A stretch of 42,486 nt of DNA from a virus (lineage: Duplodnaviria; Heunggongvirae; Uroviricota; Caudoviricetes), in the IMG/VR virus record IMGVR_UViG_2522572023_000003; one strand, given 5' to 3'. Position numbers: made by a program. Positions 3,001 to 9,000 of this stretch are shown here, piece by piece (position 1 is the first letter of the stretch; each line of letters begins with the position of its first letter).

Positions 3001-6000
3001 TTGCGCATTGATGCCGAGATACGCTTCCAGTCTTCGCGGTCGTTGTCGATAACTTCATTTTTTGCCCAGCGATGGATGCTGCCGTCAATGTTTCCGGCAT
3101 CCACATCACCAGGCCAGAGAGCGTAGGCCAGTTCGTCATCCAGTGTTTTCCATGTCTGCTTGTATTCGCGATGAATGGCAGCAATGACCGGGCTGATTTT
3201 TCCTGTTGAATTTTCAGTGTGCTGTTGATTGGTTCTGGCGCGGGCGAGATCAACAACAGACGTGTATTTTCCGGTTTCCTTGCGTTCACCTTCGCGACGT
3301 TTTTTCCAGATGCGCATCTCTGCCTGAATTTCGGGCCATTTAGCACCAGGAATACATTTATGCTTAACCCACCCAATGGCGTGCAACTTAAGCTCCGGAT
3401 ACATGGTGTTAACTTCTGGCATTTTCATCAACGCTTCAACGATATGTCCGTCGAATGTTGCCATGTCTTCCTGCAACAATTCCTGTGCGCTAATAACCAT
3501 ATCAACGGTGATGTTTTCACATGTGTCGAACTTAACCATGACAGCGTTCTGTACTTCAGGGGCCAGCTTGTCAAAAGTGACGTTCATCGGATAGGATTCA
3601 GTCTCAACCGGGACAAAAGAAGCAGACTCCTCATCCCAGCGGTTTTCCTGCATATATTCAGCATCCCATGAATCGAGGGCAGGGCGGGGTATGCCAGGTT
3701 TATCCTCGCAGATAATAAATTTATAAGCGCAGTCCTGAGCAGCCGGATAATGTTCCAGGAATTGCCAGTGAAATTTTGCTCGAGCACGGCGTTCGTCGCC
3801 AGCTTCAATAGCTGTGGCTACAGCCACAGCGCCTTCTTCCCTTGTTGCCAGTTCGTCAGGAATGGCGGCGCAAATAAAGACTTTACTCATTTTGTTTTAA
3901 CCTCATGACAGATTTAAGGATGAACAAATCCCTGCCATTGCTGGCATATAAGAATGAAACCGGATATTTATTACGGAACTGTTTTAAAGACCTGCCGGGA
4001 TTTCGATATTATCCTAGTGAATAACTTTATCGACCGGGTAACAGTTACCGGGAATTTTCTGTTCGGTTGCTGCAGTCATACACTCCTGCATTGTCCTGTG
4101 AACACTGACTGCAATATCAACTGGCTCTCCGGAAACAAGAAAAACTGTCAGAACAAGCGCAAATGCTGAATTCATTGTGCACATCCTTTTGGCATCAGAC
4201 GTAAACGAGCCAGCATTGAAACAATGCATATTTTATTTAATAGCTCCCGTTCTTGTTTTCTCTTGTTAATGGCATCTTCAGTAAATACAGGGTTACTGAT
4301 AGTGACACCAATTTCAAAACAACCTTCAGACGTATTAACGTTTGGTAATAACGTTTCCATTATCTCGTCCTCAACAATGAATTTTTAGTAATTGCTCCAC
4401 AGTCATATTTTTAATTGCGCTCCGGTTTACAAGAGTCCAGCCTTGTTTCTCCAGATAAAACTGGAAGGTATCCAGGGTGCAGACCATTGCGCCGTCCGGA
4501 ACGGTTTCAGTGAATTTGATATTGCCGTGTTCGTCGAGACGGATAACCAGGGTACGTCCGTCCCCGTGAATCATTTTGTCGGGAGACGGGGCGTTATTCT
4601 GGCGCAGTTCTTTCTCCATGCGATCGAACTCAGCGATGTAGGCTTCTTTAAATGCAGCGGCTTTTTTGCCGGTGAAGCCCATCACCAGGAAAACGAAGCC
4701 GTTTTTGGTGATTTGGTACATTGGGAGTTTGCGACCGGTTGAGTCGGTATATTCGCTCGACACAAAATTGTGCTCAGTGAATTTTGCTGAACTGAACCGC
4801 CCCGGGAATCCTGGAGACTAAACTTCCTGAGAAAGAGGTAAACAGGATGACTAAAAATACTCGTTTTTCCCCTGAAGTCCGTCAACGGGCAGTCCGTATG
4901 GTTCTGGAAAGTCAGGGCGAATATGACTCACAATGGGCGACAATTTGTTCCATTGCTCCAAAGATTGGCTGTACGCCGGAGACTCTGCGTGTCTGGGTTC
5001 GCCAGCATGAGCGGGATACCGGGGGCGGTGATGGAGGGCTCACCACCGCTGAACGTCAGCGTCTGAAAGAGCTGGAGCGTGAAAATCGTGAACTGCGCCG
5101 CAGTAACGATATCCTTCGCCAGGCTTCCGCTTATTTTGCGAAGGCGGAGTTCGACCGCCTCTGGAAAAAATGATGCCACTGCTGGATAAGCTGCGTGAGC
5201 AGTACGGGGTCGGACCGCTATGCAGCGAACTGCATATTGCCCCGTCAACGTATTACCACTGTCAGCAACAGCGACATCATCCGGATAAACGCAGTGCCCG
5301 TGCGCAGCGCGATGACTGGCTGAAGAAAGAGATACAGCGCGTATACGATGAAAATCACAAGGTATACGGTGTGCGTAAAGTCTGGCGTCAGTTGTTACGG
5401 GAAGGTATCAGAGTGGCCAGATGCACTGTGGCACGTCTCATGGCGGTTATGGGACTTGCCGGTGTTCTCCGGGGTAAAAAGGTCCGTACGACCATCAGCC
5501 GGAAAGCCGTTGCCGCAGGCGACCGCGTAAACCGTCAGTTCGTGGCAGAACGACCTGACCAGCTGTGGGTGGCTGATTTTACTTACGTCAGCACATGGCA
5601 GGGCTTCGTCTATGTGGCGTTCATCATTGATGTGTTTGCCGGATACATTGTGGGGTGGCGGGTCTCATCGTCCATGGAGACGACATTCGTGCTGGATGCA
5701 CTGGAGCAGGCGTTATGGGCCCGTCGACCGTCCGGCACGGTCCATCACAGTGATAAAGGTTCTCAGTATGTATCGCTGGCCTACACACAGCGGCTTAAGG
5801 AAGCCGGATTACTGGCATCAACAGGAAGTACAGGCGACTCGTATGACAACGCGATGGCGGAGAGCATCAATGGTCTTTACAAAGCGGAGGTAATACACCG
5901 TAAGAGCTGGAAAAACCGTGCAGAAGTGGAACTGGCCACACTCACGTGGGTGGACTGGTATAACAATCGACGATTGCTGGAAAGGCTGGGCCATACTCCT

Positions 6001-9000
6001 CCGGCAGAAGCAGAAAAAGCTTATTATGCTTCCATCGGAAACGATGATCTGGCAGCCTGAGTTCACAGATAAAACACTCTCCAGGAAACCCGGGGCGGTT
6101 CAAACAGTCCAGATTGCGAATTTTATCCAACACTCGTTCGTGGCGTTTACCAAAGAACTCAGCGATCGCAATAGACGTAGTGACAGCGCGTCCATTTTCG
6201 ATGGTTACGTCAGGGTGAGAAAGGGTATGGATAGTAGCCATGATGGCAGCCTCGATAGTCAGTTTAAATAACTCACCACCAAGGCTTTCCACGACCATAA
6301 GGGTGGTGAGACGTACAGGGGTGGAAATACCGGTGACTACCGAAACCGGCCAGCCTTTCGGCTGCCCTGCACGCCCCACCATAATCTGAATGTGGCTGTG
6401 CATTACGCATAAAAAAAACGCATGAGCGCGGTTATGCGCAGTAGTCATCATCGGGTTTCCACGCCCGGCACCCGCTTTATGAGGTGCAGGTGCACTATAA
6501 TTCCACCCGTTCTGGTTTTCAATAGCTACATTCAACATTTTCTCTTACCCTTCATCACCGAAGTGAACTTTGTTGATGCAGTGCCTGGTGCCTCCAGGTG
6601 ACGTTAACCAGTTAACAATTAACGCCGGATACAGAGAATCCAACCATAACACTGTTTTTGGTTTTAACTGTTCCGCGTGCGCTTAGCCGCATTCACCGCA
6701 TCACAAAATTCACTTTAAAAAGGGCGGCAGAGCAGTCACGGAGTAAAACTGATACCGCCAAACGTCACCAGAAAATTGATAACAGAGGGCGTTGCAGCGG
6801 GGTTGTCACTTAAGCGTATGGTCAACCTGACAACCCGGTGTCCTCAACGGGGGAAGGAATAACCCCGCCATACTTACCGCCGCGCCATTTCGCGGATTGC
6901 CACAACCGGAAGCGCACGGTCGACGAAAATTTAACGACAGGCTATCTATGAACCAGCTACCTCGCCGTGCGCTTTCGCGTTATGGTCTGACTTTTCAGGG
7001 AAATATCCTTTCAGTAAACTGTCAGTGCCGGATGCTCACCCGTGTCCGGCGCACGCACTCCACCTCACCCGTGGAGAACTCCTTAATTACCAACCTTAGC
7101 TTCGTTGGTTAGCTATTAACGCGGGTATGTAATCATTCTGGCAATGCTTAATGCCGCTGCTTTTTCCAGATTGGTGATATCCTGCTCCAGAGCGGACAGA
7201 TTTTCAGCCTGCTTAGCCCTGGCTTCATTAGCCCATTTCAGATCCTGCGCTGCATTAATTTTCTGGCGCATCCACTCATAAAGTTCATCATCGGTATAGT
7301 CTGGCGCGATGATGACGGGTTCTCGTTTCTGCATACTGATTCCTCGCGGTGCTGTTTCGCTTATCAGCCGTTAGATTTTGCCGAACTGGAAAGCGCCTGT
7401 TTAAACTCACTGAAGCTGAGAGCTTCTTCGCCTTCGGCAAGGCCTTCGAAGTATTCTTCGTAAGCCTTTTCCATGATTGTGTCGAAATCCATATCACTCA
7501 CCTGAGTTTCTTTCCAGCCAGCGACGGGCACCATTTTCGGTTTTAAACGTTTTGCTTTTGGTATACGTCATTGCGGTGAACGTGCCGTCCTGGTTTGGAA
7601 ACACGCCGTACACCAGAGATTCGTTGCTGCCAAGATCGATAGTATCCATGCTGACCTCATTTCCCCTTAACGCCGGAGTAGCGGAACTGTTTGCTGAGAA
7701 CACCGTGCGGTGTCTTGATGAGTGAAATTTAGAATAACCTAAGGCATATGGTCAAGATTTTTATGTAGAAAAACCTAAGTTTTTTTGGTGTAAAAAACAC
7801 AAGTGTTTGAAAGTTTGTGCTTTTTATTACAGGGTGTGGAGAAAAAAGGGGGTTATTTGTTTGCGCTTCTTTTGCGAGCTTTAAGTAGTTCTTCAAAAAG
7901 TTTGTTGAAATTTTCAACTCGAGCACGCATCTCTGACAACAGGGCCTTTTGCTCTGAGTCAGGCAGTGCGTCGAACAGTTGAAGTAACTCTTTTTGATCT
8001 TCTGTCAGAATGGCTGGCTGATTATTCGGGATCGGTTCGCCTGGTTGTTTATCTTCATCCCCAAAAAGAAGCCAAGTCGGTGAGCACTGAAGCGCTTGGC
8101 TCAGTGCGAATAATCTTTTCCCCGCCGGCTGTGTTTCATCTCTTTCCCATTGAGAAATTGTTACGTGAGCCACTTTGACCAGCTTACCTAATGCGGCCTG
8201 AGACAGTTTTAATTTTTTACGCCTATGTAAGAGGCGAGCACCGAAGGTTTCGTTTTTCATATTAGGGAATTCTAATTTTTCTTGACTTAGGTTTCTCTAC
8301 GATCTAGTTTCCTTAGGAAAATCTAAGGAGCTCGATATGTTGAAAATTGATGCTATAGCGTTTTTTGGCAGCAAAACAAAGCTTGCCAATGCCGCAGGAG
8401 TTAGGTTGGCAAGCATTGCTGCATGGGGGGAACTGGTTCCTGAAGGTCGCGCGATGCGCCTGCAAGAGGCATCCGGCGGGGAACTTCAGTACGACCCCAA
8501 AGTTTATGACGAATATCGTAAGGCAAAGCGGGCTGGGCGGTTGAACAATGAAAATCACCCCTGAACAGGTTTGTGAGGCTCTGGATGCCTGGGTATGCCG
8601 ACCAGGAATGACACAGGAGCAGGCGACGATATTAATCACGGAAGCATTCTGGGCTCTGAAAGAACGCCCGAACATCGATGTTCAACGCGTCACGTTTGAT
8701 GATGGCGCGGTTGATCAACGGGCGCTGGGCGTTAACCGGGTGAAGATATTCGAACGCTGGAAATCTATCGACACCAGGGATAAGCGGGAAAAATTCACGG
8801 CGCTGATTCCGGCAATTATGGAGGCTATCCGGATCAGTGATTTCAGGTTGTATCGTGAAATTACTGACGGAAAAAGCATTACGTACATGATCGCCGGGTT
8901 AAACAAAGAATATGGCGATGTGGTGGAGTCCGGGCTGCTTTTTGCGGATCCAGCTGTTGTGGAACGTGAGACTGACGAGCTTATAGAAAAAGCTATTGCT

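What the first reader, a model, noticed from the sequence alone, without database searches (positions are those of the whole stretch)
4371..6241. IS629 insertion splits an rha-like gene lying between DicF and dicB
A 1310-bp IS3-family element with imperfect terminal inverted repeats and AAC target duplication interrupts an Rha-family gene. The two halves are in frame once the IS and one AAC copy are removed, which suggests a recent clean insertion. The IS sits between the DicA-repressed promoter with DicF and the downstream dicB/ydfD genes, so it may uncouple the division inhibitor DicB from its normal control or provide an outward promoter.
Basis: partly seen in the sequence, partly recalled or inferred. 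Interest (0 to 1): 0.5.

Follow-up and report, generated by a model that had tools for sequence, protein, structure and literature searches.

The report
IS629 knocks out prophage antirepressor gene
A common jumping gene (IS629) has recently landed inside a prophage regulator gene in one outbreak clone of E. coli O145:H28. This is an ordinary event, but the broken gene turns out to be the payload of a small-RNA-controlled antirepressor cassette lying between the DicF RNA and dicB.

Summary
A complete 1310-bp IS629 (IS3 family) lies at 4793-6102 on the + strand. It has 25-nt inverted repeats (23/25) and an AAC target duplication, and it splits a minus-strand Rha-family gene after codon 46. Removing the IS and one AAC restores a 558-nt, 185-aa ORF that is 100% identical to the intact gene of strain C325.

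The window is the potC-adjacent defective prophage of E. coli O145:H28 RM13516/RM12761 (Belgian ice-cream outbreak). Only these two of 5,426 complete E. coli genomes carry the occupied junction, and 134 have the empty site. The insertion is therefore recent and clone-specific, and RefSeq already annotates it as pseudogene fragments.

It is the payload of an ~866-bp cassette that K-12 Qin lacks. The cassette has its own promoter-like site, an IsrK-like RNA and a C4-like antisense RNA whose loop covaries with the rha ribosome-binding site. The leader matches that of the Gifsy-1 isrK-orf45-anrP locus and resembles P1 c4-ant.

The IS most likely makes a null antirepressor allele and separates dicB from both upstream promoters. 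No outward promoter toward dicB was predicted, and the regulatory effect is untested. Interest is low.

The parts
4793..6102 (+). Complete IS629 (IS3 family), 1310 bp, transposase on the + strand, opposite to the dic operon.
   Evidence: Many copies elsewhere are 100% identical. The first 795 nt are 99.6% identical to a PGAP-named IS629 copy.
4793..4817 (+). Left terminal inverted repeat (IRL): TGAACCGCCCCGGGAATCCTGGAGA.
6078..6102 (+). Right terminal inverted repeat (IRR), 23 of 25 complementary to IRL.
4790..4792 (.). Target-site duplication AAC, left copy.
   Evidence: Empty sites in other genomes carry a single AAC.
6103..6105 (.). Target-site duplication AAC, right copy.
4847..5173 (+). 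IS629 orfA, 108 aa.
5170..6060 (+). IS629 orfB, 296 aa, DDE transposase. It is fused to orfA by a -1 frameshift to give a 404-aa OrfAB.
5128..5244 (+). ALIL frameshift-stimulating pseudoknot.
   Evidence: Rfam RF01497, 120.2 bits.
6106..6241 (-). 5' fragment of the Rha-family (antirepressor-type) gene, covering codons 1-46. It now reads into the IS to give a 99-aa chimera that stops at 5942-5944.
4371..4792 (-). 3' fragment of the Rha-family gene (codons 46/47 to 185 plus stop), left without its start codon and ribosome-binding site.
   Evidence: PGAP: Rha family, missing N-terminus.
6250..6261 (-). Target of the C4-like loop (TGACTATCGAGG). It overlaps the GAGG Shine-Dalgarno of rha.
   Evidence: Covariation across 14 specificity types; coordinates.
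6299..6386 (-). C4-like antisense RNA. Its loop CGGTAGTCA lies at 6342..6334. An orf45-like ATG lies at 6382..6380.
   Evidence: Rfam RF01695, 79.3 bits.
6411..6487 (-). IsrK-like RNA with a T8 terminator. It carries a target-mimic patch TGACTACTG at 6447..6439 (a1b1/seqA-like).
   Evidence: Rfam RF01394, 57.1 bits.
6494..6522 (-). Promoter-like site TTGAAA-17-TATAGT, ending 7 nt before the IsrK 5' end. This is a consensus match only.
   Evidence: The site is nearly invariant in 34 homologues. Gifsy-1 has TTGACA-17-TATATT at the same place.
6722..6773 (-). DicF sRNA.
   Evidence: Rfam RF00039, 76.7 bits.
4172..4360 (-). dicB, intact, 62 aa. It starts 10 nt after the rha stop codon.
4014..4175 (-). 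ydfD-like DUF1482 gene downstream of dicB.
7726..7755 (-). Promoter-like site between dicA and ydfA, at the position of the DicA-repressed dicB-operon promoter. This is a consensus match only.
   Evidence: gene order.

Best explanation
**What happened.** An active IS629 copy transposed into the Rha-family gene of a defective lambdoid prophage integrated next to potC in the Belgian-outbreak clone of E. coli O145:H28. IS3-family elements move by copy-out/paste-in; that mechanism is established family knowledge, not shown here. The insertion duplicated AAC.

**What was hit.** The gene is the protein payload of an ~866-bp cassette that sits between dicF and dicB. In transcription order the cassette holds a promoter-like site, an IsrK-like RNA with its terminator, a C4-like antisense RNA, and then rha. 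The C4-like loop pairs with the sequence overlapping the rha Shine-Dalgarno. This is the logic of P1/P7 c4-ant and of the Gifsy-1 isrK-orf45-anrP locus.

**Shown.**
- The anatomy of the insertion.
- The in-frame reconstruction of the gene.
- The clone specificity of the insertion.
- The RNA family matches.
- Covariation between the C4-like loop and its target.

**Inferred.**
- The allele is null. The Rha domain spans residues 21-106 and is cut at residue 46, leaving a 99-aa chimera.
- The intact protein is an antirepressor or regulator that helps derepress the prophage.
- Transcripts from the DicA-side promoter and from the IsrK-type promoter must now cross 1.3 kb of mostly untranslated antisense IS RNA. 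dicB-ydfD-exo-xis expression is therefore more likely reduced by Rho-type polarity than activated.
For: **IS anatomy and family.**

**Reconstructed gene.** The ORF is 558 nt and 185 aa. It belongs to the Rha family. It is 100% identical at nucleotide level to the intact gene of strain C325 and at protein level to L007.

**Occupancy.**
- The empty junction occurs in 134 of 5,426 genomes, at least 20 of them at 100% identity.
- The occupied junction occurs only in RM13516 and RM12761.
- The nearest prophage relatives (ESDR8, C325, Z1323HEC0422, Z1323HEC0399) are 99.1-99.4% identical over 12 kb. C325 and the two Z1323 strains align in two pieces whose record span is exactly the query minus the IS and one AAC; ESDR8 also has the empty site (H27) but aligns in three pieces with an additional IS21-family insertion.
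- The IS is 100% identical to other copies in O145:H28 genomes, and IS629 is the commonest IS in RM13516.

**Cassette.**
- Rfam finds isrK and C4 between DicF and the rha ATG.
- A promoter-like site ends 7 nt upstream of the IsrK 5' end.
- The cassette is an ~866-bp indel relative to K-12 Qin, with 97.8% and 98.5% identical flanks.
- Across 14 specificity types, the C4 loop, the RBS-overlapping target and an IsrK patch change together and keep duplexes of -15 to -24 kcal/mol.
- The RNA order and spacing match Gifsy-1. That locus has been characterised experimentally (PMC4825925).
- The leader folds with a z-score of -6.8.
Against: - No expression data exist for this strain, so polarity on dicB is inferred.
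- The prophage integrase is already a pseudogene and tail genes are truncated. Loss of the antirepressor may therefore have little phenotypic consequence.
- The Rha protein is not homologous to AnrP in its N-terminal domain, so antirepressor activity is assumed from family annotation only.
- The promoter call is a consensus match, and such matches were not enriched over shuffles in this region (5 found against 4.7 expected).
Confidence: 0.85

Rival explanations
1. The IS rewires dicB. An outward-facing promoter in the IS, or a hybrid promoter at its left junction, drives dicB-ydfD constitutively, independent of DicA.
For: The geometry allows it. The IS left end lies 433 bp upstream of the dicB ATG, with no predicted strong terminator between them. 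IS3-family ends are known to carry partial promoter elements; this is general knowledge and was not tested here.
Against: - The scan found no promoter-like site on the minus strand between 6100 and 4361.
- In IS3-family elements the known outward -35 sits in the right end. Here that end points away from dicB, toward rha-5'/C4/IsrK/DicF.
- Constitutive DicB is a division inhibitor and would be expected to be counter-selected (knowledge of DicB function, PF05358).
Confidence: 0.07
2. The insertion is neutral debris in an already dead prophage. It has no regulatory consequence worth naming, because the cassette and dicB are silent anyway.
For: - The integrase carries an internal stop, and tail genes are truncated or fused.
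- DicA-type repression keeps the operon off in K-12 (established knowledge).
- IS629 is abundant, and RM13516 carries 89 ISs in all.
Against: - dicA/dicC, DicF, dicB, the C4/IsrK leader and the exonuclease gene are all intact.
- DicF is reported to be active in EHEC (cited in PMC7547250).
- This reading does not conflict with the gene being a null allele; it concerns only the phenotype.
Confidence: 0.35
3. The IS is ancestral to this prophage lineage, and the 'empty' sites in other genomes are precise excisions, for example promoted by an IS-excision enhancer.
For: Precise IS629 excision promoted by IEE is reported in EHEC. This is recalled knowledge and was not checked here.
Against: - The empty site occurs in 134 diverse genomes, and close homologues of the gene occur in 398.
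- The occupied site is limited to two isolates of a single outbreak.
- The IS is 100% identical to sister copies, which argues for a young insertion.
Confidence: 0.02

Closest known systems
IS629 (IS3 family) insertions in EHEC prophages and chromosomes
   Same: - Length of 1310 bp.
- TG...CA ends with 25-nt imperfect inverted repeats.
- orfA/orfB with a -1 frameshift and an ALIL pseudoknot.
- 3-bp target duplication.
- 100% identity to other copies in O145:H28 genomes.
- 99.6% identity over 795 nt to a PGAP-named IS629 copy.

   Different: Nothing is unusual about the element. Only the site is particular, and it is private to the RM13516/RM12761 clone.
Gifsy-1 isrK-orf45-anrP locus (Hershko-Shalev et al. 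2016, PMC4825925)
   Same: - The same order and spacing: promoter, IsrK with terminator, about 25 nt, C4-like RNA (STnc1160), about 55 nt, then the start of the downstream regulator gene.
- An identical orf45 start, ATGGTGGGGCGT.
- A C4-loop target overlapping the Shine-Dalgarno.

   Different: - The payload here is a Rha-domain protein, not an AnrP homologue; only a weak 23% C-terminal match was found.
- The orf45-like frame runs in frame into rha instead of stopping at an ATGA overlap.
- The cassette sits in the early-left dicF-dicB operon rather than downstream of a Q antiterminator gene.
- In this window the payload is destroyed by IS629.
Phage P1/P7 immI (c4 antisense RNA - icd - ant) and P4 seqA-CI-seqC immunity
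   Same: An antisense RNA is processed from the same transcript as its targets. One target copy lies upstream (a1b1/seqA, equivalent to IsrK) and one overlaps the RBS of the controlled gene. Specificity types differ by covarying loop and target sequences.
   Different: There is no icd homologue. The payload is a short Rha-family protein. The host element is a lambdoid dicA/dicC-type prophage.
dicBF operon of the K-12 Qin prophage (dicA / ydfABC-dicF-dicB-ydfD)
   Same: Gene order and sequence agree at 97.8-98.5% identity on both sides of the cassette. DicF and DicB are full length.
   Different: In K-12, dicF is followed directly by dicB. Here ~866 bp (IsrK-like, C4-like, rha) are interposed, plus the 1313-bp IS with its duplication.

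Membership tests
IS629 / IS3 family insertion sequence | About 1.3 kb element bounded by imperfect terminal inverted repeats ending 5'-TG...CA-3'. | tested here: met
   The element is 1310 bp. The IRs are 25 nt with 23 of 25 complementary: TGAACC...GGTTCA.
IS629 / IS3 family insertion sequence | Two overlapping ORFs joined by a programmed -1 frameshift, with a DDE (rve) transposase. | tested here: met
   orfA is 108 aa and orfB is 296 aa, overlapping at the A6 run. The ALIL pseudoknot scores 120 bits. NF033516 scores 315.7 bits for OrfB. The fused OrfAB is 404 aa, and PGAP annotates a programmed frameshift.
IS629 / IS3 family insertion sequence | Short (3-bp) direct target duplication. | tested here: met
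   AAC flanks both ends. Empty sites carry one AAC.
IS629 / IS3 family insertion sequence | Near-identity to the reference IS629 sequence (ISfinder / X51586). | tested here: inconclusive
The first 795 nt are 99.6% identical to a truncated copy that PGAP names IS629. The genome paper calls IS629 the commonest IS of this strain.
Rha family phage regulatory protein (PF09669 / TIGR02681) | Full-length match to the Phage_pRha domain above the curated cut-off. | tested here: met
   The reconstructed protein scores 107.9 bits against a cut-off of 29.9 (residues 21-106). TIGR02681 scores 109.9 bits against a cut-off of 45.95. In the window itself the domain is split at residue 46.
Rha family phage regulatory protein (PF09669 / TIGR02681) | Regulatory or antirepressor activity. 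| not testable with these tools
   Only annotation of homologues as 'antirepressor' or 'Rha regulator' is available.
C4/IsrK-type antisense-RNA-gated antirepressor module (P1 immI, P4 CI, Gifsy-1 isrK) | A C4/CI-type RNA gene upstream of the controlled gene on the same strand. | tested here: met
   RF01695 scores 79.3 bits at 6386..6299.
C4/IsrK-type antisense-RNA-gated antirepressor module (P1 immI, P4 CI, Gifsy-1 isrK) | An upstream target-mimic element (a1b1 / seqA / IsrK). | tested here: met
   RF01394 (isrK) scores 57.1 bits at 6487..6411. Its patch at 6447..6439 covaries with the C4 loop.
C4/IsrK-type antisense-RNA-gated antirepressor module (P1 immI, P4 CI, Gifsy-1 isrK) | The C4 loop is complementary to a site overlapping the RBS of the downstream gene, and the complementarity is maintained by compensatory change. 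| tested here: met
   All 14 loop/target types among 34 unique homologous leaders remain complementary, with duplexes of -15 to -24 kcal/mol.
C4/IsrK-type antisense-RNA-gated antirepressor module (P1 immI, P4 CI, Gifsy-1 isrK) | A small upstream ORF (icd / orf45) translationally coupled to the payload. | tested here: inconclusive
   The orf45 start codon is conserved at 6382..6380, but here the frame continues in frame into rha. The frame stays open in 32 of 34 variants yet shows no protein-level constraint.
C4/IsrK-type antisense-RNA-gated antirepressor module (P1 immI, P4 CI, Gifsy-1 isrK) | Expression and processing of the RNAs, and repression or activation of payload translation. | not testable with these tools
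   This needs Northern blots or RNA-seq and reporter fusions.
dicBF operon (Qin-type prophage immunity and division-inhibition region) | A dicC/dicA divergent pair, ydfA-ydfB-ydfC, DicF RNA, dicB and ydfD in that order. | tested here: met
   The order follows the annotation. DicF scores 76.7 bits and DicB 137 bits. The region is 97.8-98.5% identical to K-12.

The most novel reading that the evidence does not exclude
One IS629 insertion may rewire the sRNA and toxin output of an EHEC prophage in three ways:
- It deletes the protein payload of an RNA-gated antirepressor switch while leaving IsrK-like, C4-like and DicF RNAs intact.
- It severs dicB-ydfD-exo-xis from both upstream promoters.
- Because the transposase strand points out of the right end, read-out transcription could make antisense RNA across rha-5', C4, IsrK and possibly DicF.

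The net result would be a clone-specific change in DicF/DicB-mediated division control or in cross-talk among prophage antirepressors.
Probability: 0.1. Interest if true: 0.4.

Novelty: already known. Interest (0 to 1): 0.17.

Why it matters
The insertion matters little on its own. IS629 insertions into prophage genes are routine in EHEC and are already used as strain markers, and this one is already visible as pseudogene fragments in RefSeq. It is a clean clone-specific marker for the Belgian O145:H28 outbreak lineage.

Two by-products are more useful:
- About 385 complete E. coli genomes carry an IsrK/C4-type RNA-gated Rha cassette interposed between dicF and dicB. The 'dicBF operon' of many pathogenic strains therefore differs from the K-12 model and has a second internal promoter-like site.
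- The 'Ash family' N-terminal extension that pipelines attach to these Rha genes (Pfam PF10554) appears to be a translation of the IsrK/C4 RNA genes. It evolves without protein-level constraint, and the same profile matches the obsolete 'cI protein' ORF of P4. That affects how these genes should be annotated.

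Tried and rejected
- **Literature search for the IS629 end sequence** (TGAACCGCCCCGGG) found nothing. Naming therefore rests on a PGAP-labelled copy and on the genome paper.
- **The named IS629 copy in E. coli C is truncated** by a group II intron, so only 795 nt could be compared.
- **Homology between the payload and Gifsy-1 AnrP was rejected.** Only a 23% match over 75 C-terminal residues was found (E = 0.005). The shared part is the RNA leader, not the protein.
- **A 284-aa Ash-Rha fusion as the true gene was rejected as the primary reading.**
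  - PGAP annotates it that way, and the frame is open in 32 of 34 variants.
  - However, pN/pS is 0.78 and variable sites fall 36/36/35 by codon position. The other two frames give 0.88 and 0.95. The Rha control gives 0.26 and 68/45/131.
  - The Ash ORF's ATG also lies upstream of the promoter-like site.
- **PGAP's 'DicB partial' at 6569-6652** translates to VLWLDSLYPALIVNWL... and lies in sequence that K-12 also has upstream of dicB. It is not a by-product of the cassette or the IS.
- **Other O145:H28 genomes** (RM13514, RM12581, RM9872, 95-3192) did not appear among genomes sharing at least 80% of the 12-kb left arm. They could not serve as close empty-site comparators, so unrelated strains carrying the same prophage arm served instead.
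- **The terminator scan** gave only weak 5-bp stems on the minus strand, at 6093..6081 and 4475..4461. This is not enough to claim intrinsic termination in the IS.

Full report
**Origin of the window.** The window is identical to E. coli O145:H28 RM13516 (NZ_CP006262.1, about 1389304-1431789) and to RM12761, a human isolate and an ice-cream isolate. The genome paper links RM13516 to a European outbreak (PMC3893438), and the record gives Belgium as the country. The region is a lambdoid prophage next to potC. Its integrase carries an internal stop and its tail genes are truncated. It carries the effector genes nleL and espN.

**Checking the observation.**
- The sequence shows TGAACCGCCCCGGG... 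starting at 4793 and ...CCCGGGGCGGTTCA ending at 6102, which is 1310 bp, with AAC on both sides at 4790-4792 and 6103-6105.
- The two ends are 25-nt inverted repeats, 92% complementary. They are the only two matches in the window, against 0 expected by chance.
- Inside lie orfA (4847-5173) and orfB (5170-6060), overlapping at an A6 run. An Rfam ALIL frameshift pseudoknot follows at 5128-5244 (120 bits).
- OrfB scores 315.7 bits against NCBIfam IS3 transposase. A -1 shift gives an uninterrupted 404-aa OrfAB.
- The element is 100% identical to many other copies in O145:H28 chromosomes and plasmids.
- Its first 795 nt are 99.6% identical to a copy that PGAP names IS629. The genome paper reports IS629 as the most prevalent IS of RM13516.
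- I could not compare it with the ISfinder reference, so the name IS629 is well supported but not formally tested.

**The split gene.**
- On the minus strand, 6241..6106 joined to 4792..4371 gives 558 nt and 185 aa in one frame.
- The product matches Phage_pRha over its full length (4e-31, residues 21-106) and TIGR02681.
- The reconstructed gene is 100% identical at nucleotide level to the intact gene of strain C325 and at protein level to an IMG/VR contig (L007).
- As it stands, the 5' fragment encodes 46 native residues followed by 53 IS-derived residues, stopping at 5942-5944. The Rha domain is destroyed.

**Population context.**
- A 119-bp reconstructed empty junction occurs in 134 of 5,426 complete E. 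coli genomes, at least 20 of them at 100% identity.
- The occupied left junction occurs only in RM13516 and RM12761.
- Four unrelated strains (ESDR8, C325, Z1323HEC0422, Z1323HEC0399) carry the same 12-kb prophage arm at 99.1-99.4% identity.
- C325 and the two Z1323 strains lack only the IS plus one AAC: 89% coverage in two pieces, and the C325 record span of 10,688 bp is exactly the query minus them.
- ESDR8 also has the empty junction (H27) but aligns in three pieces with an additional IS21-family insertion.
- The insertion is therefore recent, clean and clone-specific. RefSeq already shows it as 'Rha family... missing N-terminus', 'IS3 family transposase' and 'ash family protein... missing C-terminus'.

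**What the gene really is.**
- Rfam finds two more RNAs between DicF (6773..6722) and the rha ATG: an IsrK-like RNA (6487..6411, 57 bits) and a C4 antisense RNA (6386..6299, 79 bits).
- The best promoter-like site in the region, TTGAAA-17-TATAGT (10 of 12), lies at 6522..6494. It ends 7 nt before the IsrK 5' end.
- IsrK ends in a hairpin followed by T8.
- Alignment with K-12 Qin shows 97.8% identity from ydfC through DicF down to window 6564. Identity resumes at 98.5% at about 4385, just before dicB.
- Everything between (IsrK-like, C4-like, rha) is an ~866-bp cassette that K-12 lacks.
- The DicF segment occurs in 4,703 genomes. DicF plus the cassette, at 80% coverage or more, occurs in 385.

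**Evidence that the cassette is an RNA-gated switch.** I collected 80 IMG/VR loci that encode Rha homologues of 79-100% identity. I then aligned the 34 distinct upstream regions.
- Three hypervariable patches change together. In the window they read as follows:
  - the C4 loop, CGGTAGTCA, at 6342..6334;
  - a site overlapping the rha Shine-Dalgarno, TGACTATCGAGG, at 6261..6250;
  - a like-sense patch in IsrK, TGACTACTG, at 6447..6439.
- Across 14 sequence types the loop-target duplex is kept at -15 to -24 kcal/mol. Examples are CGTTAGTGA with TCACTAACGAGG and CTTGGTTGA with TCAACCAAGAGG.
- This is the architecture of P1/P7 c4 (a1b1, c4, a2b2 at the RBS) and of P4 seqA-CI-seqC.
- The Gifsy-1 isrK locus has the same RNA order and spacing: isrK 34316..34240, C4 34214..34131, anrP ATG at 34076. 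Its orf45 start, ATGGTGGGGCGT, is identical.
- In Gifsy-1, IsrK read-through RNA carries orf45-anrP, short IsrK activates its translation in trans, and AnrP triggers prophage gene expression (PMC4825925).
- The payload differs. Rha and AnrP share only a weak C-terminal match.
- Rha N-domains are widely annotated as antirepressors or Rha regulators.
- The leader RNA is strongly structured (-113 kcal/mol, z = -6.8), and its minimum-energy fold includes a hairpin over the rha Shine-Dalgarno.

**The 'Ash' ORF.**
- An ORF in frame with rha runs from ATG 6538 across the promoter-like site, IsrK and C4. It matches Pfam Phage_ASH at 2e-17.
- PGAP therefore annotates intact homologues as 284-aa proteins.
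- The frame is open in 32 of 34 variants.
- It nevertheless shows no coding signature, as the comparison shows:

| Region | pN/pS | Variable columns by codon position (1st/2nd/3rd) |
|---|---|---|
| Ash frame | 0.78 | 36/36/35 |
| Same region, frame +1 | 0.88 | not computed |
| Same region, frame +2 | 0.95 | not computed |
| Rha ORF (control) | 0.26 | 68/45/131 |

- The historical 'cI protein' ORF of P4 also hits Phage_ASH (4.3e-16), and it overlaps the Rfam C4 hit on P4. P4's immunity factor is an RNA (stated in PMC4825925).
- I conclude that the Ash label is most likely a translation of RNA genes and that rha starts at 6241.
- One reservation remains. The orf45-like ATG (6382..6380) is in frame with rha here, so an N-terminally extended form is not excluded.

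**Mechanism and consequences.**
- *Shown:* the insertion, the target duplication, the destroyed domain, and the intact RNAs and intact dicB (62 aa, full-length DicB match).
- *Inferred, null allele:* the insertion makes a null antirepressor allele.
- *Inferred, dicB:*
  - In the intact cassette, dicB starts 10 nt after the rha stop with no terminator between. dicB is therefore probably co-transcribed from both the DicA-side promoter (a promoter-like site at 7755..7726) and the IsrK-type promoter.
  - The IS now places 1.3 kb of antisense, largely untranslated RNA between those promoters and dicB.
  - That favours Rho-dependent polarity, meaning less dicB, ydfD, exonuclease and excisionase expression rather than more.
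- *Outward promoter:* the scan found no promoter-like site facing dicB between 6100 and 4361, and only weak terminator-like stems.
- *Antisense read-out:* the transposase strand points toward rha-5', C4, IsrK and DicF. Any IS read-out would be antisense to those RNAs. This is speculation.

**Verdict.** Its regulatory suggestion remains untested, and the outward-promoter part has no sequence support. As an IS629 insertion in an EHEC prophage gene, the finding is ordinary and already annotated. The added value lies in recognising the IsrK/C4-gated Rha cassette between dicF and dicB, and in the likely mis-annotation of its RNA leader as an 'Ash' protein domain.

Noticed in passing
window 6242-6538 (-), and homologues in L002, L004, L005, L007-L086: The 'Ash family' ORF (Pfam PF10554) that PGAP fuses to Rha genes, giving 284-aa products, overlaps the IsrK-like and C4-like RNA genes and the promoter-like site. 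It shows no protein-level constraint: pN/pS is 0.78 and variable sites fall 36/36/35 by codon position. The same Pfam profile matches the obsolete 'cI protein' ORF of phage P4, which overlaps the Rfam C4 hit there. The family is probably a translation of RNA genes.
   Followed up: yes
window ~4386-6563 (minus the IS): Relative to K-12 Qin, an ~866-bp cassette (IsrK-like RNA, C4-like RNA, rha) is interposed between dicF and dicB, with 8 bp of microhomology at the joints. About 385 of 5,426 complete E. coli genomes have DicF followed by this cassette.
   Followed up: yes
window 6380-6382 (-) versus L087 34208-34210 (-): The orf45 start of the Gifsy-1 isrK locus (ATGGTGGGGCGT) is conserved. In Gifsy-1, orf45 ends at an ATGA overlap with anrP. 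Here the frame continues in frame into rha (47 codons upstream of the rha ATG) and stays open in 32 of 34 variants. It is unclear whether this reflects translational coupling, an extended isoform or chance.
   Followed up: partly
window 6273-6410 (-): A different-frame 45-aa ORF (MRNAQPHSDYGG...) starts immediately after the IsrK terminator and spans the C4-like RNA. It is probably fortuitous.
   Followed up: no
window 6569-6652 (-): PGAP calls this a 'DicB, missing C-terminus' pseudogene just downstream of DicF. Its translation (VLWLDSLYPALIVNWL...) does not resemble the DicB N-terminus, and the same sequence is present upstream of dicB in K-12. It is likely an annotation artefact.
   Followed up: partly
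window 17056-17307: Rfam finds STnc100 (17056-17245, +, 148 bits) directly abutting AgvB, the anti-GcvB sponge sRNA (17246-17307, -, 96.5 bits). This is the EHEC prophage anti-sRNA locus type described for O157 Sp5.
   Followed up: no
window 12851-13021 (+) and ~13020-13175: A sok antitoxin RNA (106 bits) sits next to an annotated hokD type I toxin gene in the prophage.
   Followed up: no
window 1-1120 (-), ~31800-32900 and ~42100-42486: The prophage is defective. The integrase has an internal stop, tail genes are truncated or fused, and partial gogB, transposase and nleB fragments lie at the right end. Intact nleL and espN effector genes lie at about 35400-41750.
   Followed up: no
L005 (phage cdtI, NC_009514) 2141-3289: In phage cdtI, the annotated 382-aa 'transcriptional regulator/antirepressor' orf44 also begins far upstream of the region homologous to IsrK-C4-rha, where homology starts at the IsrK +1 position. 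This suggests the same over-extension of the CDS across RNA genes.
   Followed up: no
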